Shown: positions 19,475 through 29,057 of the stretch, one piece after another
How the letters are laid out: each line of letters opens with the position of its first letter
How positions within the stretch are numbered: the first letter of the stretch is position 1
Assembly: GCA_963760615.1 (NCBI GenBank)
Contig: CAVXDX010000012.1
Span: forward strand, 8,308-72,307
Direction of reading: 5' to 3'
DNA: 64,000 nt
From: an uncultured Candidatus Micrarchaeota archaeon
Lineage (GTDB): Archaea; Micrarchaeota; Micrarchaeia; Burarchaeales; Fermentimicrarchaeaceae
The notes under the pieces: generated by a model
The model's database searches: none
What the model saw: the letters and a program-made list of their open reading frames with translations, nothing else
What the model was told of the DNA's origin: nothing
Made by a program: the position numbers and the translations under genes

Positions 19475-19617
19475 ATTCGTCACCTCTCAGTTACGATTTC
19501 AGTTTCAAGGTATATTAATATTGACTATATTCGAGTAAAGCTAGCTTGAATATTTAAAAGAGATACATACGCCAGTTTGGGACAGACTCTGTTTCTTTAG
19601 GTTTTATAAAGACAAAA

Positions 19618-19628
19618 AGGCATAATTT
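19618..19628 (+). promoter_or_regulatory. AGGCATAATTT promoter-proximal element
   Basis: 7 nt after TATA TTTATAAA, 4 nt before ATG 19633; recurs at 20528 and 23965. Confidence 0.65.
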
Positions 19629-19632
19629 AACC

Positions 19633-20505
19633 ATGCCAGAAAACGTCAAATTTACGGAAGAGCGAAACTCGGAAGAAAAGGTACCGAGAAGGGAGCACCT
19701 CCAGCCTATCAAGGAGATTATCCACCAATTACATAAAAAGAAATTTGTCGAGCCAAGTTCAGTGAAAGCTGTGCTGCTGTATATAGAAATGGATTGGGGG
19801 AGCGGTGAGCTGCAGAAATGGGCTGATGAGGTTGAACGGAAAAAAGAGAGACTAGAAAAAAAGTTTAAGGTAAATGAGAAGCTCACCACTGAGATAAAAA
19901 GCATAATTGAGAGAGTGGGCACAGGTGTTCTAAGCGAGGATGAAATGAAAGAGGCTGAGAGGAGATTCAAAGGAGCGAAATATGCGTGGAGCCGCTATTC
20001 CATTATCCCTCTTATTGTCAAGGGTGGGCAAACAGCAGGCCATATTGAGCTGCTTAGAACTGCCCCGTTATTGGATGAGGTAGCGAGTTACGGGATAAAA
20101 CTTCACGAGTCCGCCCATTTTATTCATCTTTTCATAGTTGAGAAGCGCCTTGAGAGCGGGGATATCAAAGACCCGATAATGAAAAGGCTTTATGAGTACA
20201 TGCACGGGAAATATAGCAACGAGATAATTGATGCCGCGGTGCGCGGCTATATCGGCCCGCGATATCAGGAGACCGTGGCGGAGGCTCTCATGTACTGCGT
20301 GCTGCACAAGGGCGAAACACCTGACAAGCACAGGGATTTCAGGGTGGCTGACGAATTCAGGCTGCTCGGACATGACGTCAAGGAGCTGGGAAACCTTTTC
20401 AAAAGCAACCCTGAGACATTCAGAAAGCTCGTGGAAAACCCCTCATGGTGGGTGGAAGCTGGCAGCGTTGAAAAACTTGTTGAAAAGTTGAAGGAACCGG
20501 GCTAG
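19633..20505 (+). CDS. Orphan protein with HExxH zincin metallopeptidase motif
   Basis: LHESAH and downstream ETVAEAL candidate third ligand; no signal peptide. Confidence 0.6.
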   Translation: MPENVKFTEERNSEEKVPRREHLQPIKEIIHQLHKKKFVEPSSVKAVLLYIEMDWGSGELQKWADEVERKKERLEKKFKVNEKLTTEIKSIIERVGTGVLSEDEMKEAERRFKGAKYAWSRYSIIPLIVKGGQTAGHIELLRTAPLLDEVASYGIKLHESAHFIHLFIVEKRLESGDIKDPIMKRLYEYMHGKYSNEIIDAAVRGYIGPRYQETVAEALMYCVLHKGETPDKHRDFRVADEFRLLGHDVKELGNLFKSNPETFRKLVENPSWWVEAGSVEKLVEKLKEPG

Positions 20506-20527
20506 TGACAATCTTAAAAAGGAGAAA

Positions 20528-20538
20528 AGGCATAATTT
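20528..20538 (+). promoter_or_regulatory. AGGCATAATTT promoter-proximal element
   Basis: 7 nt after CTTAAAAA, 5 nt before ATG 20544. Confidence 0.65.
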
Positions 20539-20543
20539 AGGAT

Positions 20544-21509
20544 ATGCCAGCATACAAGAAAGAGAAGGCGGAGGGCATATCAGAAAGCCACCCTGCTTCG
20601 AAAGTTGACGTCTTCCCAGACCACCTAAACACCAAGATTGGGGATTACAAAGTTCGCATAGACAAGGATGGGGTAAAAGCAAGGAAGGAAGTAAAGGACC
20701 TGACGGTTCAACTTGCGCGGATGGATTATGAACAGTGGTATTACCCGTCGTTAGGTCCGAATTTTGTAGATAAGAAAGAAATTAAGGTGCCTTCCATTGA
20801 TCTTGTCGTATCGTTCAGTTTTGAAGACCTATCCAGTATAGCCGAGTTGAAGCCTAATGAGCTTAAGGGATATCCTGAAAGGACCTCCCAAAATTGGATA
20901 AATGTGAACGTTTCTGCAAAATTCCTTATTGACGATAGGGAGATGGATATGAAAGGATTCACCAGGGGAGTTGTCAAGCATTCAATGCCTCGTTGGCTTA
21001 CTGACGCCAAGGAATCCAAGCTTCGTGATGCCATTATTCTTGATGATGATTTCCGCGGCAAGCTTGCCGGTGACATCAGGATGCTTGCCAGGAAGGTTGA
21101 CTGGATGCTGAAATTCGACCCAAATGCCTCTGTGTCATTCAAAGCGCTAATGGCTGCAAAGAAGGCGGGGATAGAAAACTTCGACAGAGAAGTCGAGAGT
21201 CTGACAATACAGGTTTTGGAAATATCAGAGAAATGCGATGTTTTCAAGAACCCGGACGCCCTGCTTCAACTGGCCGTTAAGGCAAGGGAACAGGAAAATG
21301 GCGAAGCCATAGTTCTTAAACTTGGCGTCGACCTTTTCATGGCAGCCCAATTCATCCGAGATGAAGCTAATAAGACGACTGACCCCGCTGCCAAGGCTTT
21401 CCGGGAAAACCAGGCAAAAAAACTGTATGCGCTTAGCCAGCTATTCCATGATTACGCTCTAAAGGACTTGAATGAAAAGAGAGACAAGAAGTCCAAGAAG
21501 GAGTCATAG
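20544..21509 (+). CDS. Hypothetical protein (orphan)
   Basis: 321-aa ORF with own promoter; beta-rich N-half, helical C-half; no motif recognised. Confidence 0.75.
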   Translation: MPAYKKEKAEGISESHPASKVDVFPDHLNTKIGDYKVRIDKDGVKARKEVKDLTVQLARMDYEQWYYPSLGPNFVDKKEIKVPSIDLVVSFSFEDLSSIAELKPNELKGYPERTSQNWINVNVSAKFLIDDREMDMKGFTRGVVKHSMPRWLTDAKESKLRDAIILDDDFRGKLAGDIRMLARKVDWMLKFDPNASVSFKALMAAKKAGIENFDREVESLTIQVLEISEKCDVFKNPDALLQLAVKAREQENGEAIVLKLGVDLFMAAQFIRDEANKTTDPAAKAFRENQAKKLYALSQLFHDYALKDLNEKRDKKSKKES

Positions 21510-21561
21510 ACGTTTTTCTGACATTTCTGAAATCATCTAGGCTTTCTTCTGGTTGAGGTAA

Positions 21562-21577
21562 TGTAACTATGGTTACA
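21562..21577. promoter_or_regulatory. Palindrome TGTAAC-TATG-GTTACA (candidate operator)
   Basis: Inverted repeat upstream of the 21642 promoter; same arms at 23927 and 27723. Confidence 0.65.
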
Positions 21578-21641
21578 CAAACTACATGGAAAGGAAGTCA
21601 GTTTCTTTATGGTTTATAAGCTTAAAACGAGCAATTTTAGC

Positions 21642-22943
21642 ATGCCAGAAGCGCACAAGAAAGCAGTCTATACGCAGTCCTTGATAGACAACCCTAAGCT
21701 TTCAGAAGACAAGGTAACCGGTGAGTTCAAGGGATTCCCACTAGAATACAGGAACGGCGTGATATACCTAAGCAAGGAATACCACCACATACATGCAATT
21801 ATAGAGTGGTGGGATGAGGGAACGAAGGATTTTATCAAGAGACCGGTGGTATTCGATTCAGTCAAGGTTACTGCGGAATTCAGGGGGAAGGAATTCGCAC
21901 ATGGATTCTACGGGGAGGATATAACAATTGACTGCGGTTACGCCACTGCGGAATTCAAGCTTGACGGGAAGAAGTACAAGGTGGATTACGGCATATTTGA
22001 AGGCGACAATTCTAGTTGGTATCTGAACTACTACTCGGACTTCGACAATGACAAGAAAAGACTGTATTTCATGCGTCATTTCAACAGCAGAGTCATGGAT
22101 GATTTCGTCCCATTCAGGGACCATGGGCTTGTGGATGTCCTCAGGTTTGACAAGCATGTTGCTCCGCTCTTCGAAATTGAGCTGGAAACAAGAAAGAAAA
22201 AGCATGAACTGGTTGAAGACTTGAAGCTGGAGGCGCAACAGATTGGCAGGCAATACGACATAGAAAGAAACCCCCTTCCTCTGCAGCCGATATTCAAGAG
22301 GGCCAAGGAAGCAGGGGTGGTTGATAAACTCATAGGCGGACTGAGGAGGTGGGCCATGGACAGAAGAGAGCACATGTCAGATTGGGGAGAGGAGACGAGG
22401 TGGGTTTCGATTGAAGAGATTGCAAGCGGAAGGAGAAGGGAGAGCTTTGAGGACTTGGCAAGGAGGACTCAGGCAGAGAGGCTTGACAAGATAGCAGATG
22501 CGCTTCAGAAGTTCAACCAGAAACCCACTAAACAGCAGGAGAAGGAATCTGCGGAATGGCTTGCCTTCGACAATGCGTTGAAGAAGGTTGATGGAATGAT
22601 GGCTGAGGAAAAGGACTGGAGCAGGGATACTGGTAAATTTGCCGCTCGTGTCATTGAGGAGATAAAGCCCATATGCGAGCCGAGAAAGTTTGCGGAAACC
22701 CTGAAAAGACTCATGGAGTTCAAGAAGGATGATGGAGTGGTTGAGCAACTCTCTGCACTTTACAGCCCTATGTATTTCAGGAACTTCATCAGAATGATGG
22801 GTGGGGATATCAGCAATGAGGAACTTGAGGAGCTGTTCGGAAAGGGAAAGGAGCGCCTGGGAGAGTATGTGAGAGGCGTGGCTGATGAGACCAAGGGGAG
22901 GGAGCTTCTTCTTTTGAGCGAGGAGATTCTGAAGAGATGCTGA
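21642..22943 (+). CDS. Hypothetical protein (orphan)
   Basis: Long ORF; start MPEAHKK chosen from TATA (21613) geometry; no motif recognised. Confidence 0.75.
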   Translation: MPEAHKKAVYTQSLIDNPKLSEDKVTGEFKGFPLEYRNGVIYLSKEYHHIHAIIEWWDEGTKDFIKRPVVFDSVKVTAEFRGKEFAHGFYGEDITIDCGYATAEFKLDGKKYKVDYGIFEGDNSSWYLNYYSDFDNDKKRLYFMRHFNSRVMDDFVPFRDHGLVDVLRFDKHVAPLFEIELETRKKKHELVEDLKLEAQQIGRQYDIERNPLPLQPIFKRAKEAGVVDKLIGGLRRWAMDRREHMSDWGEETRWVSIEEIASGRRRESFEDLARRTQAERLDKIADALQKFNQKPTKQQEKESAEWLAFDNALKKVDGMMAEEKDWSRDTGKFAARVIEEIKPICEPRKFAETLKRLMEFKKDDGVVEQLSALYSPMYFRNFIRMMGGDISNEELEELFGKGKERLGEYVRGVADETKGRELLLLSEEILKRC

Positions 22944-23064
22944 ACAGCCAGCACACGGGCTCCTGACAGGAAGTTTGGGAGGGGGCAGCAGACGATTAGC
23001 GGAAAGTTACCCCTTGCCAATGTTTTTAAACGACAAACCTAGTATCAATACAGAGGCGGGGTAA

Positions 23065-23511
23065 TTGGATGTTCTTTTAGATACAAATGTCTACCTGGCG
23101 CATATAAAAGGTGAAATGCAGGGCTCTCATGCAAAAATTATACTGGAAAGGGTGGCAGCAGGGGAGCTTGCCCTTTGCTACAACGGCATAATCCGGATGG
23201 AAATAGAGAGAAAGTATGGGTATTACCTAGAACCGTTTTGCGCCATACTCGAAGAGCTGAGAAAATTAGGCAGAGTTGTGGATGTTGAAATCACAAATGA
23301 GATGAGTGAAAAGGCAATACAACTCGATAGGAAGCTGATAAAATACAGAAGAGGAAAGGAAGAAAGATTCGGAAAGATTGATTGCTTGCTGATACTTCTT
23401 GCAAAGAAACATGGATGCATGCTTGTGACTATTGAGAAAGAATTAATTGAAGCCGCAAGAGAAGAGGGAGTCAAGGCAGTCAGTCCAATGGATCTAGCGA
23501 TGAGTTTCTAG
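23065..23511 (+). CDS. PIN-domain (VapC-like) ribonuclease toxin
   Basis: VLLDTNV, IRMEIE, GKIDCLLILLA, LVTIEKEL. Confidence 0.82.
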   Translation: MDVLLDTNVYLAHIKGEMQGSHAKIILERVAAGELALCYNGIIRMEIERKYGYYLEPFCAILEELRKLGRVVDVEITNEMSEKAIQLDRKLIKYRRGKEERFGKIDCLLILLAKKHGCMLVTIEKELIEAAREEGVKAVSPMDLAMSF

Positions 23512-23823
23512 GTTCGCTTCCTTTATGAGCATGCCCAGAGCTTTACGTTCATTGTTATCCGCCCTCTTTAGAAAATCTTTCCACAACGATTTTCTGGCTG
23601 CCCTTCCTAGTTTTGCTGCGCTCTTTGCTCTATCTCGTTTAACACTCCCGAAAGTCTCCTCAATAATCTTTAATGCCCTTTGTCTTAAAAGTTCAGTCTT
23701 TCCTAATTTACTCATATCTTTTACGGCCTCACTTCTAGAGGTATAGTATCCTTCTTTAACCAGAATATCTATCTCCTCAACGTCTTTTACTGCATACCGA
23801 ACTGGTACGACAATGGATTTCAT
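23494..23823 (-). CDS. Ribbon-helix-helix (CopG/VapB-like) protein
   Basis: IVVPVRY..KDVEEIDILVKEGYYTSRSEAVKD; convergent with the PIN gene. Confidence 0.8.
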   Translation of the reverse strand: MKSIVVPVRYAVKDVEEIDILVKEGYYTSRSEAVKDMSKLGKTELLRQRALKIIEETFGSVKRDRAKSAAKLGRAARKSLWKDFLKRADNNERKALGMLIKEANLETHR

Positions 23824-23843
23824 TGTATACTAAAGCGTATACA
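23824..23843. promoter_or_regulatory. Inverted repeat TGTATAC-N6-GTATACA, likely RHH autoregulatory operator
   Basis: Lies between the TATA box and ATG of the RHH gene. Confidence 0.55.
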
Positions 23844-23926
23844 GTATTTAAAAGCTTTTGCTGTTCGTATTAAGCCGAATTGTTATTTCATCAAGATTGA
23901 TAGAATGACCAAGAGGGACGGGGGAA

Positions 23927-23942
23927 TGTAACCCGGGTTACA
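23927..23942. promoter_or_regulatory. Perfect palindrome TGTAACCCGGGTTACA
   Basis: 7 nt upstream of TATA CTTAAATA of the 23981 ORF. Confidence 0.65.
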
Positions 23943-23964
23943 AAGCAGGCTTAAATATCGGGAA

Positions 23965-23975
23965 AGGCATAATTT
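23965..23975 (+). promoter_or_regulatory. AGGCATAATTT promoter-proximal element
   Basis: 7 nt after CTTAAATA, 5 nt before ATG 23981. Confidence 0.65.
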
Positions 23976-23980
23976 AAGGC

Positions 23981-24148
23981 ATGACAGAGGCAAAAAAGCC
24001 GGCTGCCAGCATGAGAAAAGATATAGAGCGGCAGCAGGAGAAGATGAGGGAGCTGTTCGACGAGCTCAAAGAAACCGTGAGCAAACCCAAATGGGATGAG
24101 AAGCCGAAGGGGTTCTTCACCGCGCTTGAGAAAAAGCTCGGCAACTAA
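23981..24148 (+). CDS. 55-aa charged protein (absent from ORF track)
   Basis: MTEAKKPAASMRKDIERQQEKMRELFDELKETVSKPKWDEKPKGFFTALEKKLGN; has the shared promoter and palindrome. Confidence 0.6.
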   Translation: MTEAKKPAASMRKDIERQQEKMRELFDELKETVSKPKWDEKPKGFFTALEKKLGN

Positions 24149-24350
24149 CCTTAAGGCAACGGATATAATACACTTTGTCACGGCGGGTGAATCAAAATGT
24201 AACATTATACTGACTTCAGATGATGACTTTATTTCAGAAGGTACAAGATTTCTAAAGATGAAAAAAGAAGATGACAAGCTAAAGTTCTGTAAGCCTATCG
24301 AAAAGAATGTGCTAGATGCAGTTGATAATCTCACTAAAAAAGTTCCTTAA
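24147..24350 (+). pseudogene. C-terminal remnant of a PIN-domain gene
   Basis: LKATDIIHFVTAGESKCNIILTSDDDF matches the PIN C-terminal half; no N-terminal DTN motif or credible start. Confidence 0.6.
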
Positions 24351-24385
24351 AGTATATAGATTTTTGTGTATAATATAGCATCCGT

Positions 24386-24658
24386 GAATCACTCGAAACC
24401 GTCCGGTTTTGCCAGAAAAAGCAAAAAAAGCGGTAAAATCCGGCAGAACAGGCAGTATCTCTCCAACTTCTTCAAAAATCCTGAAAAGCCAGCCTAGACC
24501 GGAGAAGCCGGCTCAGGCGTAAGCCTCTTCCGGCTGCGCCAAAGCGCAGCAAGTGTTAGTTTGACCGTTTCACGATGAAGAGAAAAAGCAGGTGAAACGG
24601 TAACCGATGCTGCTCAGACGTAAGCATATTCCGAACTGCCTACCGTTTCGACCGATTC
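24386..24658 (+). ncRNA. Candidate structured ncRNA of unknown family
   Basis: Seven nested helices including 10-bp ACCGTTTCAC/GTGAAACGGT, AGGCAGT/ACTGCCT and GCTGCGC/GCGCAGC; A-rich loops; TATA-like sequence upstream. Confidence 0.5.
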
Positions 24659-24746
24659 TACAGACGTGTTTTATACCCTAGCAGAAATTTGAAAAAAAGC
24701 AGAAAGCTTACGCTATACTCGCAGTCAATGACTACTGCCCACCTCC

Positions 24747-24938
24747 CTACTTACTCAGAGCTTTTGCTATTACTATCAGAACTGGTGTTATGATTGTCAG
24801 TGCTACTGCAGCTGTTATAACTTGTAGTATCTGAGAACCTAGTGGATTACTGGTTGTTATTAGATAGAGTGCTGCTAGTACGATGATTGCAACTGTTCCA
24901 CTTGCAATTCCAATTCCAAATATCTTCAGTGAACTCAT
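24747..24938 (-). CDS. 63-aa two-helix hydrophobic protein
   Basis: SD GGAGGTGAA then ATG; MSSLKIFGIG...IITPVLIVIAKALSK. Confidence 0.65.
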   Translation of the reverse strand: MSSLKIFGIGIASGTVAIIVLAALYLITTSNPLGSQILQVITAAVALTIITPVLIVIAKALSK

Positions 24939-25267
24939 GCCTTTCACCTCCAGCCCTTACTCGCTAGAAAGGTTTTTAAATCGCCTCTTACAAAACTAGT
25001 AACAGTTATGTAAGAGGTGGTAGCGGGAGAGGTCATGGTTACACGTGTACCCTCCCCCATCTCTTTCTAGTTTTCAAAACTGCTATAATTTTGGAAGTAA
25101 AAGTTTTAATAACATATTGTCCAACAAATTCAGTCGCTCCGACGAGAAGATGCCGGAATGTGAGTTCTGCTGGTTCAATCGAAGTATTTTATACCCGAAT
25201 TGAAGATGCTGGTTTTTGTGCGAGTTGAGAGGCAGATATTTAAACCGAAAAATGCATAACTTATTCC

Positions 25268-25509
25268 GAGTGATGAGCCGGCAGCTTTCCCGCAAGGGAG
25301 GAAGTTCCACCCATCGCGAAGGCTGAGGGAACCTAAGGTTCGGACGGGAACAGAAACGAGACTGGCCGATTCAGATGAGGATGAAGCAATGAGATGGGTC
25401 GAGCCGGGTGAAACGCGCCCGTCGCAAAAGCAGGATGTGCGATGCAAGGCCTTTGAGCCGCTTAGTCCAATGCTGTCTAAAACAAAAGGTGGGCTATGGC
25501 TCGTCACTC
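25268..25509 (+). ncRNA. rnpB: RNase P RNA (type-M-like)
   Basis: 12-bp P1 GAGTGATGAGCC/GGCTCGTCACTC; GAGGAAGTTCCACCC and AACAAAAGGTGGGCTA (P4); P2 GGCAGC/GCTGTC; ACAGAAAC and GGTGAAAC conserved regions. Confidence 0.93.
25463..25509 (+). repeat. 47-bp direct repeat copy 1 (3' end of rnpB; att-like)
   Basis: TAGTCCAATGCTGTCTAAAACAAAAGGTGGGCTATGGCTCGTCACTC identical to 26703-26749. Confidence 0.95.
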
Positions 25510-26019
25510 TTTCTGCTTGCTTGGCTTCTTTATGACAGGTTTTTCCTCTGGCTTTGTTTTCTGTAAAGTAAGCGCAAGCGACCATCCGATGGTTACTCCG
25601 CAGACCCACAAAAACCCGAAGATTATAGGACTGATGTCGGAATGGTATATCGGGCACGCATCCAAAATTCCAAATAGGGGTTTGTTGTATGGCCTTCCGG
25701 AGGTGCAGTGGAAAATGAATGGTATCAGCGCCAGTATGGCAATGAAGAAAAGGAAAGTGAGAATCCCGCTGGCAATCAGATCTATTGAATCCAGATGGTA
25801 TATTCTCACCGCAGCGTAGCCGCCGCTGATAAAAATGATAAGGACAGCCAGCAGATACCCGAAGTAAAAGTTGCTTCCAAATGCAAATTGAGAGTAGCCC
25901 GGGAGAGAATCGTACATGGGCTCGGTTATTGCGTATATGAGAAATATCAAAGCCACTGGAATAAGCGATGCTTTCAGCATTTTCTTCCATTCCATGAGAC
26001 CACCCATCAGATATGCCAT
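25504..26019 (-). CDS. Hypothetical membrane protein (island cargo)
   Basis: Several TM segments; TATA TTTATAAA upstream; stop codon lies inside the rnpB repeat. Confidence 0.7.
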   Translation of the reverse strand: MAYLMGGLMEWKKMLKASLIPVALIFLIYAITEPMYDSLPGYSQFAFGSNFYFGYLLAVLIIFISGGYAAVRIYHLDSIDLIASGILTFLFFIAILALIPFIFHCTSGRPYNKPLFGILDACPIYHSDISPIIFGFLWVCGVTIGWSLALTLQKTKPEEKPVIKKPSKQKE

Positions 26020-26040
26020 TCCGAGATTTATAAAGTTTCA

Positions 26041-26061
26041 CACCGGGGGCTTTTTTTCCAG
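26041..26061. repeat. Element E copy 1, CACCGGGGGCTTTTTTTCCAG
   Basis: Matches 27700-27719 except for one T; both copies lie 5' of a minus-strand cargo gene. Confidence 0.8.
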
Positions 26062-26071
26062 CAGAATGCGC

Positions 26072-26383
26072 TTATAACTCCGTATGGATTACCTTGAGGA
26101 GCAGACCGTCCTTTATCTTTTCGAACAGCACAAGGTCCTTGTCATGAATCTTCTCCTCCTCAACCAGCTTCTCAGGCAGTGTGACCACTTTTGAATGCCC
26201 CACCACCCTCACCCTCCTGGCCAACGACTTCCTCCTGCCGGTCAGGACTTCCCACCTCAGCATTTCGCTTGAGGGAAAGAAGGTCTCGGAGCAGCCCTGG
26301 CACTTCCATCCTCTAATCCTGACGCCTTCGCTTACTTCCGTGTATTTTTTCAACGGTCCTTTGCAGATTGCGCATCTTTCCAT
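26072..26383 (-). CDS. YgiT/MqsA-type zinc finger + AbrB/MazE domain antitoxin-like protein
   Basis: CAICKG...GWKCQGCSETFF and RRVRVVGHSKVVTLPEKL. Confidence 0.78.
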   Translation of the reverse strand: MERCAICKGPLKKYTEVSEGVRIRGWKCQGCSETFFPSSEMLRWEVLTGRRKSLARRVRVVGHSKVVTLPEKLVEEEKIHDKDLVLFEKIKDGLLLKVIHTEL

Positions 26384-26388
26384 AAACA

Positions 26389-26634
26389 TCACCTCACAAG
26401 CTTCAGATGAATTAATATAATCTCCTTGTCAGTTTCGGCATAGACAAGCTCCCAAACTCCATTTTTTGCTTTCCTCTCAACCCTTACCTTCTCCTTGGAT
26501 TCCTTCTCATGCTCTCCTTTCTCCAGGATTTCCAGAACAAAATCCAGATTTTTCCTGTATATGTTGTAAAGTTCATTCTTGAAATGCCCTGTCTCAATCA
26601 AATCTTTGTTCTTGAATCGCAGCTCTTCAGGCAT
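26389..26634 (-). CDS. RelE/MqsR (DUF4258-like) toxin-like protein
   Basis: 81 aa, TGHF N-terminal motif, C-terminal beta strands WELVY...IILIHL; overlaps the start region of the zinc-finger partner. Confidence 0.6.
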   Translation of the reverse strand: MPEELRFKNKDLIETGHFKNELYNIYRKNLDFVLEILEKGEHEKESKEKVRVERKAKNGVWELVYAETDKEIILIHLKLVR

Positions 26635-26702
26635 ATATCTCAACTGAGTAAAGTATATACTCTTGGATATTTATATATCTTTCTATAATTGAGGCTTTGC
26701 TG

Positions 26703-26749
26703 TAGTCCAATGCTGTCTAAAACAAAAGGTGGGCTATGGCTCGTCACTC
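26703..26749 (+). repeat. 47-bp direct repeat copy 2 (duplicated rnpB 3' end)
   Basis: Identical to 25463-25509. Confidence 0.95.
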
Positions 26750-26766
26750 ATTATTGTTTATTGTGT

Positions 26767-27627
26767 TCAGGCGATTCCGTACTGTTTTTTTATCTCCTCG
26801 AAAGTAGGCAGGGCAAACTCCTTTCTTGCTTTTACTACTTCCTGAAAATCCTCAGGATTGACCCCGAGCTTCTTGGCTATGTCCTTCACATCTAACAGCT
26901 TAACCTTTGAAAGCTTTACTACTCCGAACCAGTGCATCGCCCTCACGTCATCCCAGAGAAGCTCGCCATTGGGGTTTTTCGCCAGCTCTTCTATTATCTC
27001 CTTCCTGGCTGCATAAATCTTGTCGTCATCCCCGAGAATCCTGTTGTTGAAAAAAAGAAAGATTTTCGCAAACGTGACTTCCTCCATGTCTTCAGATTTT
27101 TTGCTGCCATCTGAAGGTTTGAAATTTCTTATTCTCTCTTTTGTTTCCTCAAGTTCGAAGATACGACCTCTGAGTTTCATGTTTTCATCTCCAAACTCGT
27201 GCATCACCAAGCTCGTTTCATGGTTATTGCTCTCATCCCTCAGTAGGACATGCACATCAACATCGCTCCTTGCCCCTGCGGTTCCTTTTGCCCAGCTCCC
27301 CATAAATGAAAGTCCTATAAACTTGTCCCCGTTAATGAATTTTAGCGCTTTCTCAGCTCTCCCCAGCAGCTCTATGAGTTCTTCATAGCGCTGTTTTTCC
27401 AAAGCAGTGCCCTTTCTACCTATAAACTCCGGGTATTCGGCTGACTTGAGGACTTCCGCCCTTGCGGCCTGCTTCAGCTCATTCTTGAATGACTTCGTGA
27501 GAAACTTTTCAGCAGCAGCCCTTTCGTCATCTGACAGGATGCTTTTCTTCAGGGCTTCCTTGAAGTCTGAGCCTATCTCATCCCTGAGTTTTTGCTCTAT
27601 CTGCTTGTCCTTTGAAATTTTCTGCAT
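26767..27627 (-). CDS. Pol-beta superfamily nucleotidyltransferase-domain protein
   Basis: LSFMGSWAKGTAGARSDVDVHVL (GS..G...SDxD); start MQKISK inferred from TATA-N7-ATGCCTAATCT-N4-ATG geometry. Confidence 0.75.
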   Translation of the reverse strand: MQKISKDKQIEQKLRDEIGSDFKEALKKSILSDDERAAAEKFLTKSFKNELKQAARAEVLKSAEYPEFIGRKGTALEKQRYEELIELLGRAEKALKFINGDKFIGLSFMGSWAKGTAGARSDVDVHVLLRDESNNHETSLVMHEFGDENMKLRGRIFELEETKERIRNFKPSDGSKKSEDMEEVTFAKIFLFFNNRILGDDDKIYAARKEIIEELAKNPNGELLWDDVRAMHWFGVVKLSKVKLLDVKDIAKKLGVNPEDFQEVVKARKEFALPTFEEIKKQYGIA

Positions 27628-27699
27628 GTCTAGATTAGGCATTTCTTTCTATTTAATCTTGCCTCCCCCCCAACAACCAAATTAACCAGTAAGATTTCC

Positions 27700-27719
27700 C
27701 ACCGGGGGCTTTTTTCCAG
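27700..27719. repeat. Element E copy 2, CACCGGGGGCTTTTTTCCAG
   Basis: Matches 26041-26061. Confidence 0.8.
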
Positions 27720-27722
27720 TTA

Positions 27723-27738
27723 TGTAACCATGGTTACA
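27723..27738. promoter_or_regulatory. Perfect palindrome TGTAACCATGGTTACA
   Basis: Third copy of TGTAAC-N4-GTTACA, upstream of the NTase gene. Confidence 0.65.
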
Positions 27739-27818
27739 TTGCCTTGACACGGATTTATTTTGTTACAGTAACAAAAAATGCCTCTTTTCGTGCTGATTTT
27801 GTTATAATAACAAATTAA

Positions 27819-28091
27819 CTAGTCCGCCCCGCACCAGAATCCGCCGTACTTCTTTATGTACTTCTCCTCCTGCTTGAAATGCTTCCTGCAGAGGTAGCTC
27901 CATCCCGAGTCCTTTCCGATGTGGTAAACCTCCTTGAATGGTTCATCGGTGCAGCCCTTATAATCGCAGAAATGCCCCTCCATGTATCTTCTGGCGCATT
28001 TCTCGGAGCAGAACTCGCCGTATTTCTTCAGGGAGACTGCCTTCCTGCCCGTTTTTCCATCGCACCATCTGCACTCTCTTTCTCTACGCAT
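27819..28091 (-). CDS. Small double zinc-finger protein (TRASH/YHS-like)
   Basis: CRWC...FCSEKC and CDYKGC...YLCRKH; ATG overlaps the stop of the HTH gene. Confidence 0.6.
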   Translation of the reverse strand: MRRERECRWCDGKTGRKAVSLKKYGEFCSEKCARRYMEGHFCDYKGCTDEPFKEVYHIGKDSGWSYLCRKHFKQEEKYIKKYGGFWCGAD

Positions 28092-28443
28092 GGTATGCAA
28101 CTGCCTTTATCGATTTCCTATGGGCCGCTCCTTCACCGACGGATTGTCTTATCAGCGCAAGCTCTATCTTCTTTATTTCTTGCACTATTGGGCTTGCCTC
28201 GTTGAGCTGGTAGAGCTTTATCCTGCCAATCTGCCTTGTCACTTTCATTATGTTCCTTTCCTCAAGCCTGTCCCAGTATTTGTACAGGGTCGTCCAGCCA
28301 ACTCCCGAGCCATTTGCTATTTCCTTCTTGGTGAAATCCCGCAGTCTGTTCTCCAGTAGGAAATCAATTATTCTGAATAATGGCGTGTCCCCGAAAAATT
28401 CAAGAAGAAGGGAACTACCACCGCTAGGGTCGCCAAGACTCAC
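28084..28443 (-). CDS. Winged-HTH DNA-binding protein
   Basis: FFGDTPLFRIIDFLLE..DFTKKEIA..SGVGWTTLY...TRQIGRIKLYQLN; SD GAGGTGAT. Confidence 0.8.
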   Translation of the reverse strand: MSLGDPSGGSSLLLEFFGDTPLFRIIDFLLENRLRDFTKKEIANGSGVGWTTLYKYWDRLEERNIMKVTRQIGRIKLYQLNEASPIVQEIKKIELALIRQSVGEGAAHRKSIKAVAYHA

Positions 28444-28589
28444 TTATATCACCTCTAAGCATTATTATTAACAGTTAATAGTTAACACACAAAAGTATTT
28501 AAATGTTCGCTAATAAATATATGAGCATTCTTCAAAAAGAACAGTTGGAGAGTAGTCTGAGGTGACCGTGACTCCAACGGAGAATACGT

Positions 28590-28880
28590 ATGAGTGAGAT
28601 TGACAGGGCATATTCAAAAGAAGAGCTTAAGGCGCACATTCTCTATAAGCTTGCAAGGAGGAGGATGTGGGGAGGCAAACACCTCCCGATTATGTATGTC
28701 CGTTCTGGAATTCCTCAGAAATATTTGAGTCAGTTAGATGAGATTGCGAAGGAACTTATAAATGAAGGACTTCTCATTCAAGCTCCGAAAACAGGCCAGC
28801 TTCATGTCTCACTCAATCCGCGTATGAAGAGGGAAATAATTGAGCTGATTGAAAGACATTTCGGAAAAGTTTACTGGTGA
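28590..28880 (+). CDS. Small winged-helix-like protein with WGGKH motif
   Basis: ILYKLARRRMWGGKH...KELINEGLLI...HVSLNP. Confidence 0.7.
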   Translation: MSEIDRAYSKEELKAHILYKLARRRMWGGKHLPIMYVRSGIPQKYLSQLDEIAKELINEGLLIQAPKTGQLHVSLNPRMKREIIELIERHFGKVYW

Positions 28881-28933
28881 AACACGAGCCACTCACCCTT
28901 TTAAATTTTCTATTTCACAACTAATACGCCAAG

Positions 28934-29057
28934 GCCAAGGTAGCTCAGCTTGGTTAGAGCACCAGACTCATAAGCTCAGCTTCATGAGTGATGAGCGCTA
29001 TGCGCGATGATATGCTGCGTAATCTGGGTGTCGCGAGTTCAAATCTCGCCCTTGGCA
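28934..29057 (+). tRNA. tRNA-Met(CAT), probably elongator, with 49-nt intron (28973-29021) at 37/38
   Basis: Acceptor GCCAAGG/CCTTGGC, anticodon stem CCAGA/TCTGG around CTCATA^A, T-loop GTTCAAATC. Confidence 0.9.

What the first reader, a model, noticed from the sequence alone, without database searches (positions are those of the whole stretch)
25463..27719. RNase P RNA 3' end used as an integration site for tandem, integrase-less gene cassettes
The last 47 bp of rnpB are duplicated perfectly 1240 bp downstream, the signature of site-specific integration normally seen at tRNA/tmRNA genes. A second ~20-bp element E (CACCGGGGGCT6-7CCAG) is also duplicated. Read on the minus strand the order is E - NTase gene - rnpB repeat - TA pair - E - membrane gene - rnpB end. 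Two unrelated cargo genes therefore sit in the same E...att frame, and one stop codon lies inside the att. No recombinase is in the window, so mobilisation would be in trans. This looks like a cassette-capture array anchored on rnpB and stabilised by an MqsRA-like TA module.
Basis: partly seen in the sequence, partly recalled or inferred. Interest (0 to 1): 0.82.

Follow-up and report, generated by a model that had tools for sequence, protein, structure and literature searches.

The report
Mini mobile elements docked in rnpB
In this tiny symbiotic archaeon (Micrarchaeota, genus Ca. Fermentimicrarchaeum) the end of the essential RNase P RNA gene is a docking site where small, integrase-less DNA units, each carrying a toxin-antitoxin pair plus one cargo gene, have piled up in tandem; this is the pattern known from tRNA genes, seen here at an unusual target.

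Summary
The last 47 nt of an intact archaeal RNase P RNA gene (25268-25509) recur exactly at 26703-26749. The 20-21-nt element E recurs at 26041 and 27700. Both occur nowhere else in the 1.14-Mb genome.

Comparison with 12 related rnpB loci (genus Ca. Fermentimicrarchaeum and one sister genus) shows a real integration hot spot:
- Two loci are empty, with rnpB about 33 nt from tRNA-Met.
- Three carry cargo with no second copy in the sequence available.
- Seven others carry one or two displaced rnpB 3' copies of about 16-47 nt, bounding units of about 1-2 kb.

In five unit types, a toxin-antitoxin operon (five different families) lies beside the distal or only rnpB copy, and a variable gene lies next to rnpB. 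None of the 13 loci has a recombinase.

The same genome has equivalent integrase-less units behind tRNA-Glu, next to a 20-kb element with a tyrosine integrase, and behind tRNA-Asn.

Best reading (about 0.6): tandem site-specific accretion of att-flanked mini-elements, mobilised in trans. E is a real conserved junction element, but its role as a recombination site is unproven. The TA pair is a RelE-fold toxin with a Zn-ribbon/AbrB antitoxin, so it is only loosely MqsRA-like.

Earlier notes of this scan report rnpB insertions in other lineages. I found no paper describing this target.

The parts
25268..25509 (+). Intact RNase P RNA gene (rnpB); target of integration
   Evidence: Rfam RF00373, 86.3 bits, model 1-288. 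88-96% identical to rnpB of relatives.
25463..25509 (+). att1 (attL-like): last 47 nt of rnpB, covering J15/2, the P2 3' strand and the P1 3' strand
   Evidence: Exact 47-nt repeat. Structural position from the Rfam alignment.
25504..26019 (-). Cargo X of unit 1: 171-aa multi-pass membrane protein with no known family; its stop codon lies inside att1
   Evidence: ORF. No Pfam, PADLOC or NCBIfam hit. A homologue sits behind a different att copy in contig L046.
26041..26061 (.). E1: conserved junction element between the X promoter and the TA operon
   Evidence: Lies outside the TA block found elsewhere and outside the X block shared with L046.
26072..26383 (-). Putative antitoxin, 103 aa (106 from the upstream GTG): N-terminal CxxC...CxxC Zn ribbon plus an AbrB/MazE-type domain
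   Evidence: PF04014 E 0.005 and TIGR02609 E 5e-4, both below the curated cut-offs. Always paired with the 81-aa gene in other contigs.
26389..26634 (-). Putative toxin, 81 aa, RelE/ParE-superfamily fold
   Evidence: AF2 model with pLDDT 76. All top Foldseek PDB hits are YafQ, HigB2, YoeB or RelE, E about 0.04, TM about 0.5. Six close homologues only.
26635..26691 (-). Promoter region of the TA operon; left edge of the portable TA block
   Evidence: The block 26691..26057 is 84-88% identical in nine other contigs, where it has neither att nor E.
26703..26749 (+). att2 (displaced rnpB 3' end): distal boundary of unit 1 and proximal boundary of unit 2
   Evidence: In G002 the NTase homologue follows the native rnpB end just as it follows att2 here.
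26767..27642 (-). Cargo X of unit 2: 291-aa nucleotidyltransferase (Pol-beta/MNT-type)
   Evidence: PF01909 E 1.3e-5. PADLOC PDC-S09 E 1e-7. A homologue lies directly after rnpB in G002.
27700..27719 (.). E2: second copy of the junction element
   Evidence: E2 and the palindrome that follows it (27696-27743, 49 nt) are 98% identical in G001, between different genes.
27722..27739 (.). 18-bp perfect palindrome ATGTAACCATGGTTACAT; likely an operator
   Evidence: Seen directly in the sequence. Conserved next to E in G001 and L043.
27757..27819 (-). P block: promoter with two palindromic operators. In relatives it drives a HEPN-MNT operon and abuts a 24-nt rnpB copy
   Evidence: About 91-95% identical in L042, L044, L045, L046 and G001. 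Followed by att24 in L042, L044 and L045.
27819..28880 (.). Backbone of unit 2: Cys-rich 93 aa (-), winged-HTH 119 aa (-), 96 aa (+)
   Evidence: 80.5% identical block in L043, where it ends at a 17-nt rnpB copy. Only weak HTH hits.
28883..28894 (+). Possible degenerate remnant of the distal att of unit 2 (CACGAGCCACTC); uncertain
   Evidence: Same position as att17 in L043. It overlaps the conserved tRNA-upstream CACTCAC motif, so chance is not excluded.
28934..29057 (+). Intron-containing tRNA-Met(CAT): the ancestral right neighbour of rnpB
   Evidence: Rfam tRNA 57.6 bits. ARAGORN with introns allowed. About 33 nt from the rnpB end in the empty alleles of G003 and G004.

Best explanation
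The rnpB 3' end of Ca. Fermentimicrarchaeum is an attachment site (attB) into which small circular elements have integrated one after another by Campbell-type site-specific recombination.

Each element carries a copy of the last 16-47 nt of rnpB. Integration therefore rebuilds an intact rnpB and pushes the old 3' end, together with older elements, towards the neighbouring tRNA-Met gene.

The window holds two units:
- Unit 1 (25510-26749) consists of a membrane-protein gene, E1, a RelE-fold toxin with a Zn-ribbon/AbrB antitoxin, and att2.
- Unit 2 (26750 to about 28890) consists of a nucleotidyltransferase gene, E2 with its palindrome, promoter block P, a small regulator cluster and a decayed distal att.

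The units encode no recombinase, so they are att-flanked passengers, like the cis- or trans-mobilisable elements of bacteria. The catalyst is supplied in trans. The best candidate is the family of 401-403-aa tyrosine recombinases with a C-terminal Zn ribbon found elsewhere in the genome. The toxin-antitoxin operon beside the distal att keeps the unit from being lost.

What is shown: the repeats, the empty and variant alleles, the unit architecture, the absence of a recombinase, and parallel arrays at tRNA-Glu and tRNA-Asn in the same genome.

What is inferred: circular intermediates, the identity of the recombinase, a crossover within the last ~16 nt (the P1 3' strand), and the addiction role of the TA pairs.
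For: (1) Exact 47-nt duplication of the gene's 3' end with an intact proximal gene.

(2) Empty alleles. In G003 and G004 the rnpB end lies about 33 nt from the tRNA-Met upstream region. rnpB followed closely by a tRNA is also seen in three other genera.

(3) Independent events. Nine displaced rnpB 3' copies occur in 8 of 13 loci, with lengths 47, 46, 37, about 30, 24, 17 and 16 nt. All share the exact gene end and all are in the gene's orientation. L045 has three copies in a row.

(4) The distal copy in L042 is followed by the same flank (ACTTCGATTTAAG...) as the native gene end in the empty G004 allele. That is what a displaced attB half should look like.

(5) Left parts of distal copies carry foreign rnpB alleles: position 6 C/A in L041, and a divergent hairpin in L046. 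The last ~16 nt are identical, which places the exchange there.

(6) Unit structure. The conserved backbone, a TA operon plus att, is 83-95% identical between contigs and ends at att, while the rnpB-proximal gene differs. Five TA families are used.

(7) The same genome has, behind tRNA-Glu(CTC), a 20-kb element with a tyrosine integrase. This is followed by four integrase-less units of 1.05-1.8 kb, each bounded by copies of the last 11 nt of the tRNA. It also has a 1-kb single-gene unit bounded by a 19-nt duplication at tRNA-Asn.

(8) Three paralogous tyrosine recombinases are the only recognisable recombinases in the genome.
Against: - No integrase lies in or next to any of the 13 rnpB loci.
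- No free or plasmid-borne copy of the att was found in viral contigs, in 10 family genomes or in the metagenome scan.
- No integrase locus carries an rnpB-like att. The link to the Zn-ribbon recombinases rests only on their presence and on a shared 9-mer (CTATGGCTC) with the tRNA-Glu att, which is weak and post hoc.
- G002 and G006 carry cargo without a second att, so some insertions either lost their attR or arose in another way.
- The TA block of unit 1 also occurs elsewhere without any att. The 5.7 kb upstream of rnpB is also variable and has no att. So a more general gene-module shuffling acts on this region too.
- Mobility of the present units (excision, circles) is not demonstrated.
Confidence: 0.6

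Rival explanations
1. Homologous recombination only. DNA taken up from related cells carries a stretch of the rnpB 3' end and inserts by single crossover through 16-47 nt of homology. Later exchanges between repeated sequences (att, E, P, promoter cassettes) shuffle the modules. No dedicated recombinase is involved.
For: - No recombinase at any rnpB locus.
- Block boundaries coincide with short conserved sequences: att, E, P and TATA-box regions.
- Variable repeat lengths.
- The region upstream of rnpB is also variable without att.
- The TA block moves without att.
- An earlier follow-up in this genome reported gene gain and loss between conserved promoter cassettes (e1-1158849).
Against: - It does not explain how the first rnpB fragment came to lie on the incoming DNA.
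- It does not explain why every copy ends exactly at the gene's 3' end.
- The same scar pattern at tRNA-Glu in this genome is physically linked to a tyrosine integrase.
- 16-17 nt of identity is short for efficient homologous recombination.
Confidence: 0.2
2. Decayed remnants. Each unit is what is left of a larger integrase-bearing element after internal deletion. The units are fixed scars, no longer mobile, and the TA pairs survive because they resist deletion.
For: - The tRNA-Glu array has its integrase-bearing 20-kb element proximal and the short units distal, that is older.
- TA modules are expected to outlast their neighbours.
- Unit 2 has a decayed distal att.
Against: - Unit sizes fall in a fairly narrow range (about 1-2 kb) and the units are complete: promoter, intact ORFs, att.
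- The two att copies in the window are 47/47 identical, although rnpB differs by 4-12% between species. This argues for a recent event.
- The same backbone occurs with different partners and at different array positions.
- No integrase fragment was found in any unit.
Confidence: 0.12
3. A dedicated cassette platform, integron-like. rnpB acts as the fixed insertion site. E and att are two recombination sites that frame an exchangeable gene slot, served by a specialised trans-acting recombinase.
For: - Six instances of 'E - promoter - gene X - att' with unrelated X genes.
- E is 20/20 identical between units. E2 and the adjacent palindrome (49 nt) are 98% identical between species while both flanks differ.
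- E belongs neither to the X nor to the TA block.
- X stop codons lie inside att in several loci.
Against: - E is absent from about half of the units (L042, L044, L045, second unit of L046).
- It has no fold.
- It is unique to this locus.
- No integron integrase or any adjacent recombinase is present.
- No cassette is seen with E on both sides.
Confidence: 0.06
4. Assembly artefact or chimeric contig at a short repeat.
For: The genome is a metagenome-assembled genome. Contigs of relatives break inside rnpB: G003 C37/C14, and L043 starts inside the gene.
Against: - A 47-nt repeat is shorter than reads and than the usual final k-mer.
- Seven independent contigs from other samples show the same type of structure with different content.
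- Synteny on both sides of the array is conserved.
Confidence: 0.02

Closest known systems
Genomic islands and proviruses integrated in tandem at the 3' ends of tRNA and tmRNA genes by tyrosine integrases (Islander/TIGER class; PMC4383910, PMC12424338)
   Same: - Direct repeat made of the target gene's 3' end.
- The gene is regenerated and the displaced fragment marks the far end.
- Tandem arrays with the newest unit next to the gene.
- Empty alleles in relatives.
   Different: - The target is the RNase P RNA gene. I found no paper naming it as a target.
- Units are only about 1-2 kb and encode no integrase.
CIMEs (cis-mobilisable elements) and integrative mobilisable elements of bacteria: att-flanked elements without their own recombination module, accreted next to ICEs.
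   Same: - Flanked by att sites and lacking an integrase.
- Found in tandem accretion. In this genome, at tRNA-Glu, they lie next to an integrase-bearing element.
   Different: - Archaeal (DPANN) host, much smaller units, TA-centred architecture.
- No helper is present at the rnpB locus itself.
'Gene capture' at archaeal tRNA genes by SSV-type integrases, whose gene is split on integration (PMC7253208, PMC8371274)
   Same: Archaeal, stable-RNA gene 3' end as target, trapped elements left behind.
   Different: - No SSV-type integrase (PF16795) in the genome.
- No split integrase halves at the unit ends. The genes abutting att are membrane proteins, NTases and PsbP-like proteins.
Chromosomal integron cassette arrays (including the archaeal integrons reported in 2022; from my own knowledge)
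   Same: Arrays of about 1-kb promoter-poor or single-gene units, rich in toxin-antitoxin pairs, inserted at one fixed site; stop codons run into the recombination site.
   Different: - No intI next to the array.
- No attC-type folded sites.
- The recombination site is a copy of an RNA gene end.
- Each unit has its own promoters.
MqsRA and HigBA type II toxin-antitoxin systems
   Same: Toxin gene first; toxin with a RelE-superfamily fold; antitoxin with an N-terminal Zn-binding module.
   Different: The antitoxin's DNA-binding domain is AbrB/MazE-like, not XRE-HTH. There is no sequence-level match to MqsR or MqsA.

Membership tests
Integrative element at a stable-RNA gene (tRNA/tmRNA-island class) | Direct repeat consisting of the 3' part of the target gene; proximal copy completes an intact gene | tested here: met
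   47/47-nt repeat. The proximal copy is part of a full-length Rfam match.
Integrative element at a stable-RNA gene (tRNA/tmRNA-island class) | Empty (uninterrupted) site in related genomes and variable content between att copies | tested here: met
   G003 and G004 are empty. There are ten different occupied configurations, counting the window, in the 13 loci compared.
Integrative element at a stable-RNA gene (tRNA/tmRNA-island class) | Element encodes its own integrase next to an att site | tested here: not met
   No integrase in the window or in any of the 13 rnpB loci. Pfam on the cargo proteins gave no recombinase, apart from one IS6-type transposase beyond the array in L046.
Integrative element at a stable-RNA gene (tRNA/tmRNA-island class) | Excision and circularisation, or integration catalysed at a defined crossover | not testable with these tools
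   Needs reads or experiments. Indirect evidence only: foreign alleles occur only to the left of the last ~16 nt.
CIME-like / trans-mobilised att-flanked element | Flanked by att sites, no recombination module of its own | tested here: met
CIME-like / trans-mobilised att-flanked element | A cognate integrase-bearing element uses the same att site | tested here: not met
   No integrase-bearing element with an rnpB att was found in G000, 10 family genomes, viral contigs or the 7 metagenome contigs. The analogous situation is met at tRNA-Glu in the same genome.
Integron | intI integrase gene adjacent to attI and a common promoter | tested here: not met
   The nearest tyrosine recombinases are on other contigs.
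Integron | Cassettes end in attC sites that fold as imperfect hairpins | tested here: not met
   E and the att regions fold no better than shuffles, z +0.2 to +1.0. Att is an RNA-gene fragment.
SSV-type (type I) archaeal integration | Integrase ORF contains attP and is split into two halves at the element ends | tested here: not met
   PF16795 has no hit in the genome. The genes abutting att are unrelated to integrases.
MqsRA toxin-antitoxin | MqsR-type RelE-fold toxin encoded upstream of the antitoxin | tested here: inconclusive
   RelE/ParE-superfamily fold at modest confidence: pLDDT 76, best Foldseek E 0.036, TM about 0.5. The best hits are YafQ, HigB2 and YoeB, not MqsR.
MqsRA toxin-antitoxin | MqsA: N-terminal Zn-binding domain plus C-terminal XRE-type HTH | tested here: not met
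   A Zn-ribbon motif is present, but the C-terminal domain matches AbrB/MazE (PF04014, TIGR02609), both below cut-off, and no HTH.

The most novel reading that the evidence does not exclude
The rnpB 3' end works as a fixed capture platform for a population of TA-stabilised mini-cassettes in Micrarchaeota. A trans-acting Zn-ribbon tyrosine recombinase inserts units that mimic the ends of stable-RNA genes (rnpB, tRNA-Glu, tRNA-Asn). A second conserved site, E, allows the gene next to rnpB to be swapped. This would be an integron-like gene-exchange system that has no dedicated integrase at the platform.
Probability: 0.2. Interest if true: 0.85.

Novelty: new variant of a known kind. Interest (0 to 1): 0.62.

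Why it matters
- Integration into the 3' ends of tRNA and tmRNA genes is textbook. The RNase P RNA gene is not a recognised target in the papers I could search.
- Here it is used repeatedly within one genus, with clean empty alleles and several array states. That makes the system directly testable: which recombinase acts, where the crossover lies, and whether circles exist.
- It shows how ultra-small DPANN genomes with very few mobile-element genes still acquire accessory genes, as ~1-2-kb units built around an addiction module.
- It gives a simple search rule for finding such units elsewhere: look for displaced 3' ends of stable-RNA genes.
- Because the incoming DNA replaces the P1 3' strand of an essential ribozyme, the target itself may limit host range to close relatives.

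Tried and rejected
- E as a displaced tRNA 3' end: no tRNA of the genome ends like E. No match to AWTCCCRCCGGGGGC in 29 genomes of the order.
- E or att as folded, attC-like sites: no structure beyond shuffles.
- E in viral contigs: 26 hits to a 16-mer in a very large collection. I estimate this is about the number expected by chance; not followed.
- Free or viral copy of the att: none in viral contigs. The P block was not found in viral contigs either, and only in G001 among species genomes.
- rnpB 3' duplication in 16 other genera of the order within up to about 8 kb downstream (less where the contig ended): none, apart from one 12-nt match of no weight.
- Integrase near any rnpB array, or rnpB-like att near any integrase of the family: none.
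- Serine recombinase, IS6 transposase, SSV-type integrase in the genome: none.
- Sequence searches of the 81-aa and 106-aa proteins against PDB chains: nothing significant.
- Source of the divergent middle part of the att copy in L046: not found among relatives.
- Literature searches for rnpB as an integration target: nothing relevant.
- One Rfam call failed on size and was repeated with the gathering threshold.
Full report
**What is in the window**

Rfam finds one full-length archaeal RNase P RNA gene at 25268-25509 on the + strand (86.3 bits, gathering score 84, model 1-288). Its last 47 nt (25463-25509) recur without a mismatch at 26703-26749. A 20-21-nt element, CACCGGGGGCT(6-7)CCAG (E), recurs at 26041-26061 and 27700-27719. 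Shuffles never give two matches for either. In the whole 1.14-Mb, 16-contig assembly both sequences occur only at these places.

All genes between rnpB and the next conserved gene lie on the - strand, except one 96-aa ORF:
- a 171-aa membrane protein, whose TGA stop lies inside the rnpB end;
- a two-gene pair;
- a 291-aa nucleotidyltransferase;
- a Cys-rich 93-aa protein;
- a 119-aa winged-HTH protein.

The next conserved gene is an intron-containing tRNA-Met at 28934-29057.

**Who it is and what relatives look like**

Exact-pattern scans name the closest public genomes as Candidatus Fermentimicrarchaeum / Micrarchaeota MAGs. I compared 13 rnpB loci: the window, five species genomes (four of the genus and one of a sister genus in the same family) and seven metagenome contigs.

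- The flanks are syntenic. A helicase and a cupin gene lie to the left, tRNA-Met and the following genes to the right.
- In G003 and G004 the rnpB end is followed after about 33 nt by the tRNA-Met upstream region. These are empty sites.
- rnpB closely followed by a tRNA is also seen in three other genera of the order, so the empty state is probably ancestral.
- G002 has only a homologue of the nucleotidyltransferase between rnpB and the tRNA.
- G006 has a HEPN/NTase pair. G001 has a 297-aa gene, E and a HEPN-MNT pair.

The seven metagenome contigs found with the last 31 nt of rnpB all carry extra rnpB 3' copies: 46, 37, about 30, 24 (three times), 17 and 16 nt. All are in the orientation of the gene and all end at its exact 3' end. 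L045 has three copies in a row. Sixteen genomes from other genera of the order show no such duplication within up to about 8 kb downstream.

**Why this is integration and not chance or artefact**

- The proximal copy always completes an intact gene, and the distal copies are bare fragments.
- The distal copy of L042 is followed by the same short flank that follows the native gene in the empty G004 allele. That is expected for the displaced original half-site.
- Distal copies carry foreign alleles only in their left part: a C/A difference in L041, and a different hairpin in L046. The last 16-17 nt, the 3' strand of helix P1, are identical. This places the exchange there.
- The 47-nt repeat is shorter than a read, and the structure recurs with different content in independent assemblies, so an assembly artefact is very unlikely.

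**Architecture of the units**

Pairwise comparison shows conserved backbone blocks, 83-95% identical between contigs, that end at a displaced att. The gene next to rnpB (X) differs.

In five unit types the backbone is a toxin-antitoxin operon whose promoter abuts the distal or only rnpB copy:
- a RelE-fold 81-aa protein with a Zn-ribbon/AbrB 103-aa protein (window);
- RHH with a ParE-like protein (L041, L046);
- wHTH with a RelE-like protein (L040, L045);
- HEPN with MNT, driven by a 54-63-nt promoter/operator block P (G001, L042, L044, L045, L046);
- PaREP1/HEPN with an NTase (G006).

The backbone of the window's unit 2, shared with L043, is a small regulator cluster rather than a recognisable TA pair. 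X genes are membrane proteins, PsbP-like proteins, nucleotidyltransferases or orphans. Several X ORFs end inside att.

The window contains two units:
- Unit 1 is 25510-26749.
- Unit 2 runs from 26750 to about 28890. Its right part is 80% identical to a block in L043 that ends in a 17-nt att copy. In the window only a doubtful remnant is left at that position.

**The two-gene pair**

The 81-aa protein has six close homologues, always followed by the 103-aa partner. Its AlphaFold model (pLDDT 76) matches only RelE/ParE-superfamily toxins at the top of the Foldseek list, with weak scores (E about 0.04, TM about 0.5). The partner has a CxxC...CxxC ribbon and sub-threshold AbrB/MazE hits.

So it is a plausible type II toxin-antitoxin pair with the toxin gene first. 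In organisation it is 'MqsRA-like', but it is not a member of that family.

Its 635-bp block, from the TATA region to about 12 nt past the stop, occurs at 84-88% identity in other genomic contexts with neither att nor E.

**Element E**

- E occurs six times in the 13 loci, always between the promoter of X and the backbone. On the - strand it reads GGAAAAAAGCCCCCGGTG, followed either by a BRE/TATA or by a further ~20 conserved nt.
- It is part of neither the portable TA block nor the X block shared with L046.
- E2 and the palindrome that follows it (49 nt in all) are 98% identical between the window and G001, although both flanks differ.
- It has no fold, is not a tRNA fragment, and is missing from about half of the units.
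- On the + strand it is a G+C-rich stretch followed by T6-7. That could stop read-through from rnpB before it runs antisense into the TA operon. This is my inference and is untested.

Its conservation makes it functional in some way. That it is a recombination site remains a minority reading.

**Who does the recombination**

No recombinase lies in the window or in any of the 13 loci. The genome has no serine recombinase, IS6 transposase or SSV-type integrase.

It has three paralogous 401-403-aa tyrosine recombinases with a C-terminal Zn ribbon. The family is multi-copy in the genus.
- One closes a 20-kb element at tRNA-Glu(CTC), bounded by a 27-nt repeat. It is followed by four integrase-less units of 1.05-1.8 kb, each bounded by the last 11 nt of the tRNA. 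One of these units carries a Fic/DOC gene.
- tRNA-Asn has a 19-nt duplication around a 1-kb single-gene unit.

The rnpB array is thus one instance of a genome-wide habit, and at tRNA-Glu that habit is physically tied to an integrase. This is the main reason to prefer site-specific recombination in trans (confidence about 0.6) over pure homologous recombination (about 0.2) or decayed larger elements (about 0.12).

A shared 9-mer (CTATGGCTC) between the minimal rnpB att and the palindrome in the tRNA-Glu att is noted only as a lead. No integrase locus carries an rnpB-like att, and no free att copy was found.

**Comparison with what is known**

The scar pattern is that of tRNA/tmRNA islands (PMC4383910). 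The lack of an integrase and the accretion resemble bacterial CIMEs (my own knowledge). Archaeal 'gene capture' by split SSV-type integrases (PMC7253208, PMC8371274) is excluded here. Integrons are excluded by the absence of intI and attC.

I found no paper that names rnpB as an integration target.

Earlier notes of this scan (unchecked AI notes) report rnpB-end insertions in an Asgard, a Bathyarchaeia, a CPR and another Micrarchaeota genome, the last also with a toxin-antitoxin cassette. So the scan has seen the phenomenon before on other DNA.

**Verdict**

- The feature is real and well supported as a hot spot of tandem insertion.
- It is a new variant of a known kind: new target, integrase-less TA-centred mini-units, DPANN host.
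- The cassette-platform reading with E as a second site is possible but unproven.

Noticed in passing
G000:C14:55248-80925 (loci L116, L117): tRNA-Glu(CTC) is followed by a 20-kb element that ends in a 403-aa tyrosine integrase and a 27-nt att repeat. After it come four integrase-less units (1.05-1.8 kb), each bounded by the last 11 nt of the tRNA. One unit encodes a Fic/DOC protein.
   Followed up: partly
G000:C8:138641-139750: tRNA-Asn has its last 19 nt duplicated 1022 nt downstream, around a single 245-aa secreted or membrane protein gene with no integrase. Contig C9 carries a second copy of this arrangement.
   Followed up: partly
window 19544-25226: About 5.7 kb immediately upstream of rnpB is absent from G002, G003 and G004, where the cupin gene abuts rnpB. 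It holds three orphan ORFs of 290, 321 and 444 aa, a PIN/RHH pair and a PIN fragment. Parts recur upstream of rnpB in L041, L044 and G001. No att-like repeat bounds it.
   Followed up: partly
G000:C8:48553-49758, C8:73177-74382, C14:74300-75511: Three paralogous (52-66% identical) tyrosine recombinases with a C-terminal Zn ribbon. One lies directly after tRNA-Leu(CAG). One is flanked by a 27-nt direct repeat 13.6 kb apart (C8:36195 / 49822) whose target gene I did not identify.
   Followed up: partly
loci L101-L109: The window's 81-aa/103-aa gene pair with its promoter is a portable 635-bp block, found at 84-88% identity next to an SMC gene and in other contexts. Its edges lie at the TATA region and about 12 nt after the stop codon.
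   Followed up: partly
G003 contigs C37 (end) and C14 (start): The assembly of a sister species breaks inside rnpB: the two contigs overlap over rnpB positions 62-191. Contig L043 also starts inside the gene. This is consistent with strain-level variation downstream of rnpB in those populations.
   Followed up: no
window 27722-27739, 27757-27819 and 23922-23949: Palindromes TGTAACC-N2-GGTTACA and TTGTTA(C/T)A(G/A)TAACAA sit upstream of island genes. In relatives the latter pair forms the promoter/operator of a HEPN-MNT operon. They are probably operators of the small regulators encoded nearby.
   Followed up: partly
L046:622-1455 (- strand of the locus): A 277-aa IS6/IS240-type DDE transposase with an N-terminal Zn ribbon lies just beyond the rnpB array in one metagenome contig, followed by a methionyl-tRNA synthetase fragment in place of tRNA-Met synteny.
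   Followed up: no
G004:C2:9377-9392: A one-mismatch copy of E (CTCCGGGGGCTTTTTT) lies near the end of a short contig of a species whose rnpB site is empty.
   Followed up: no
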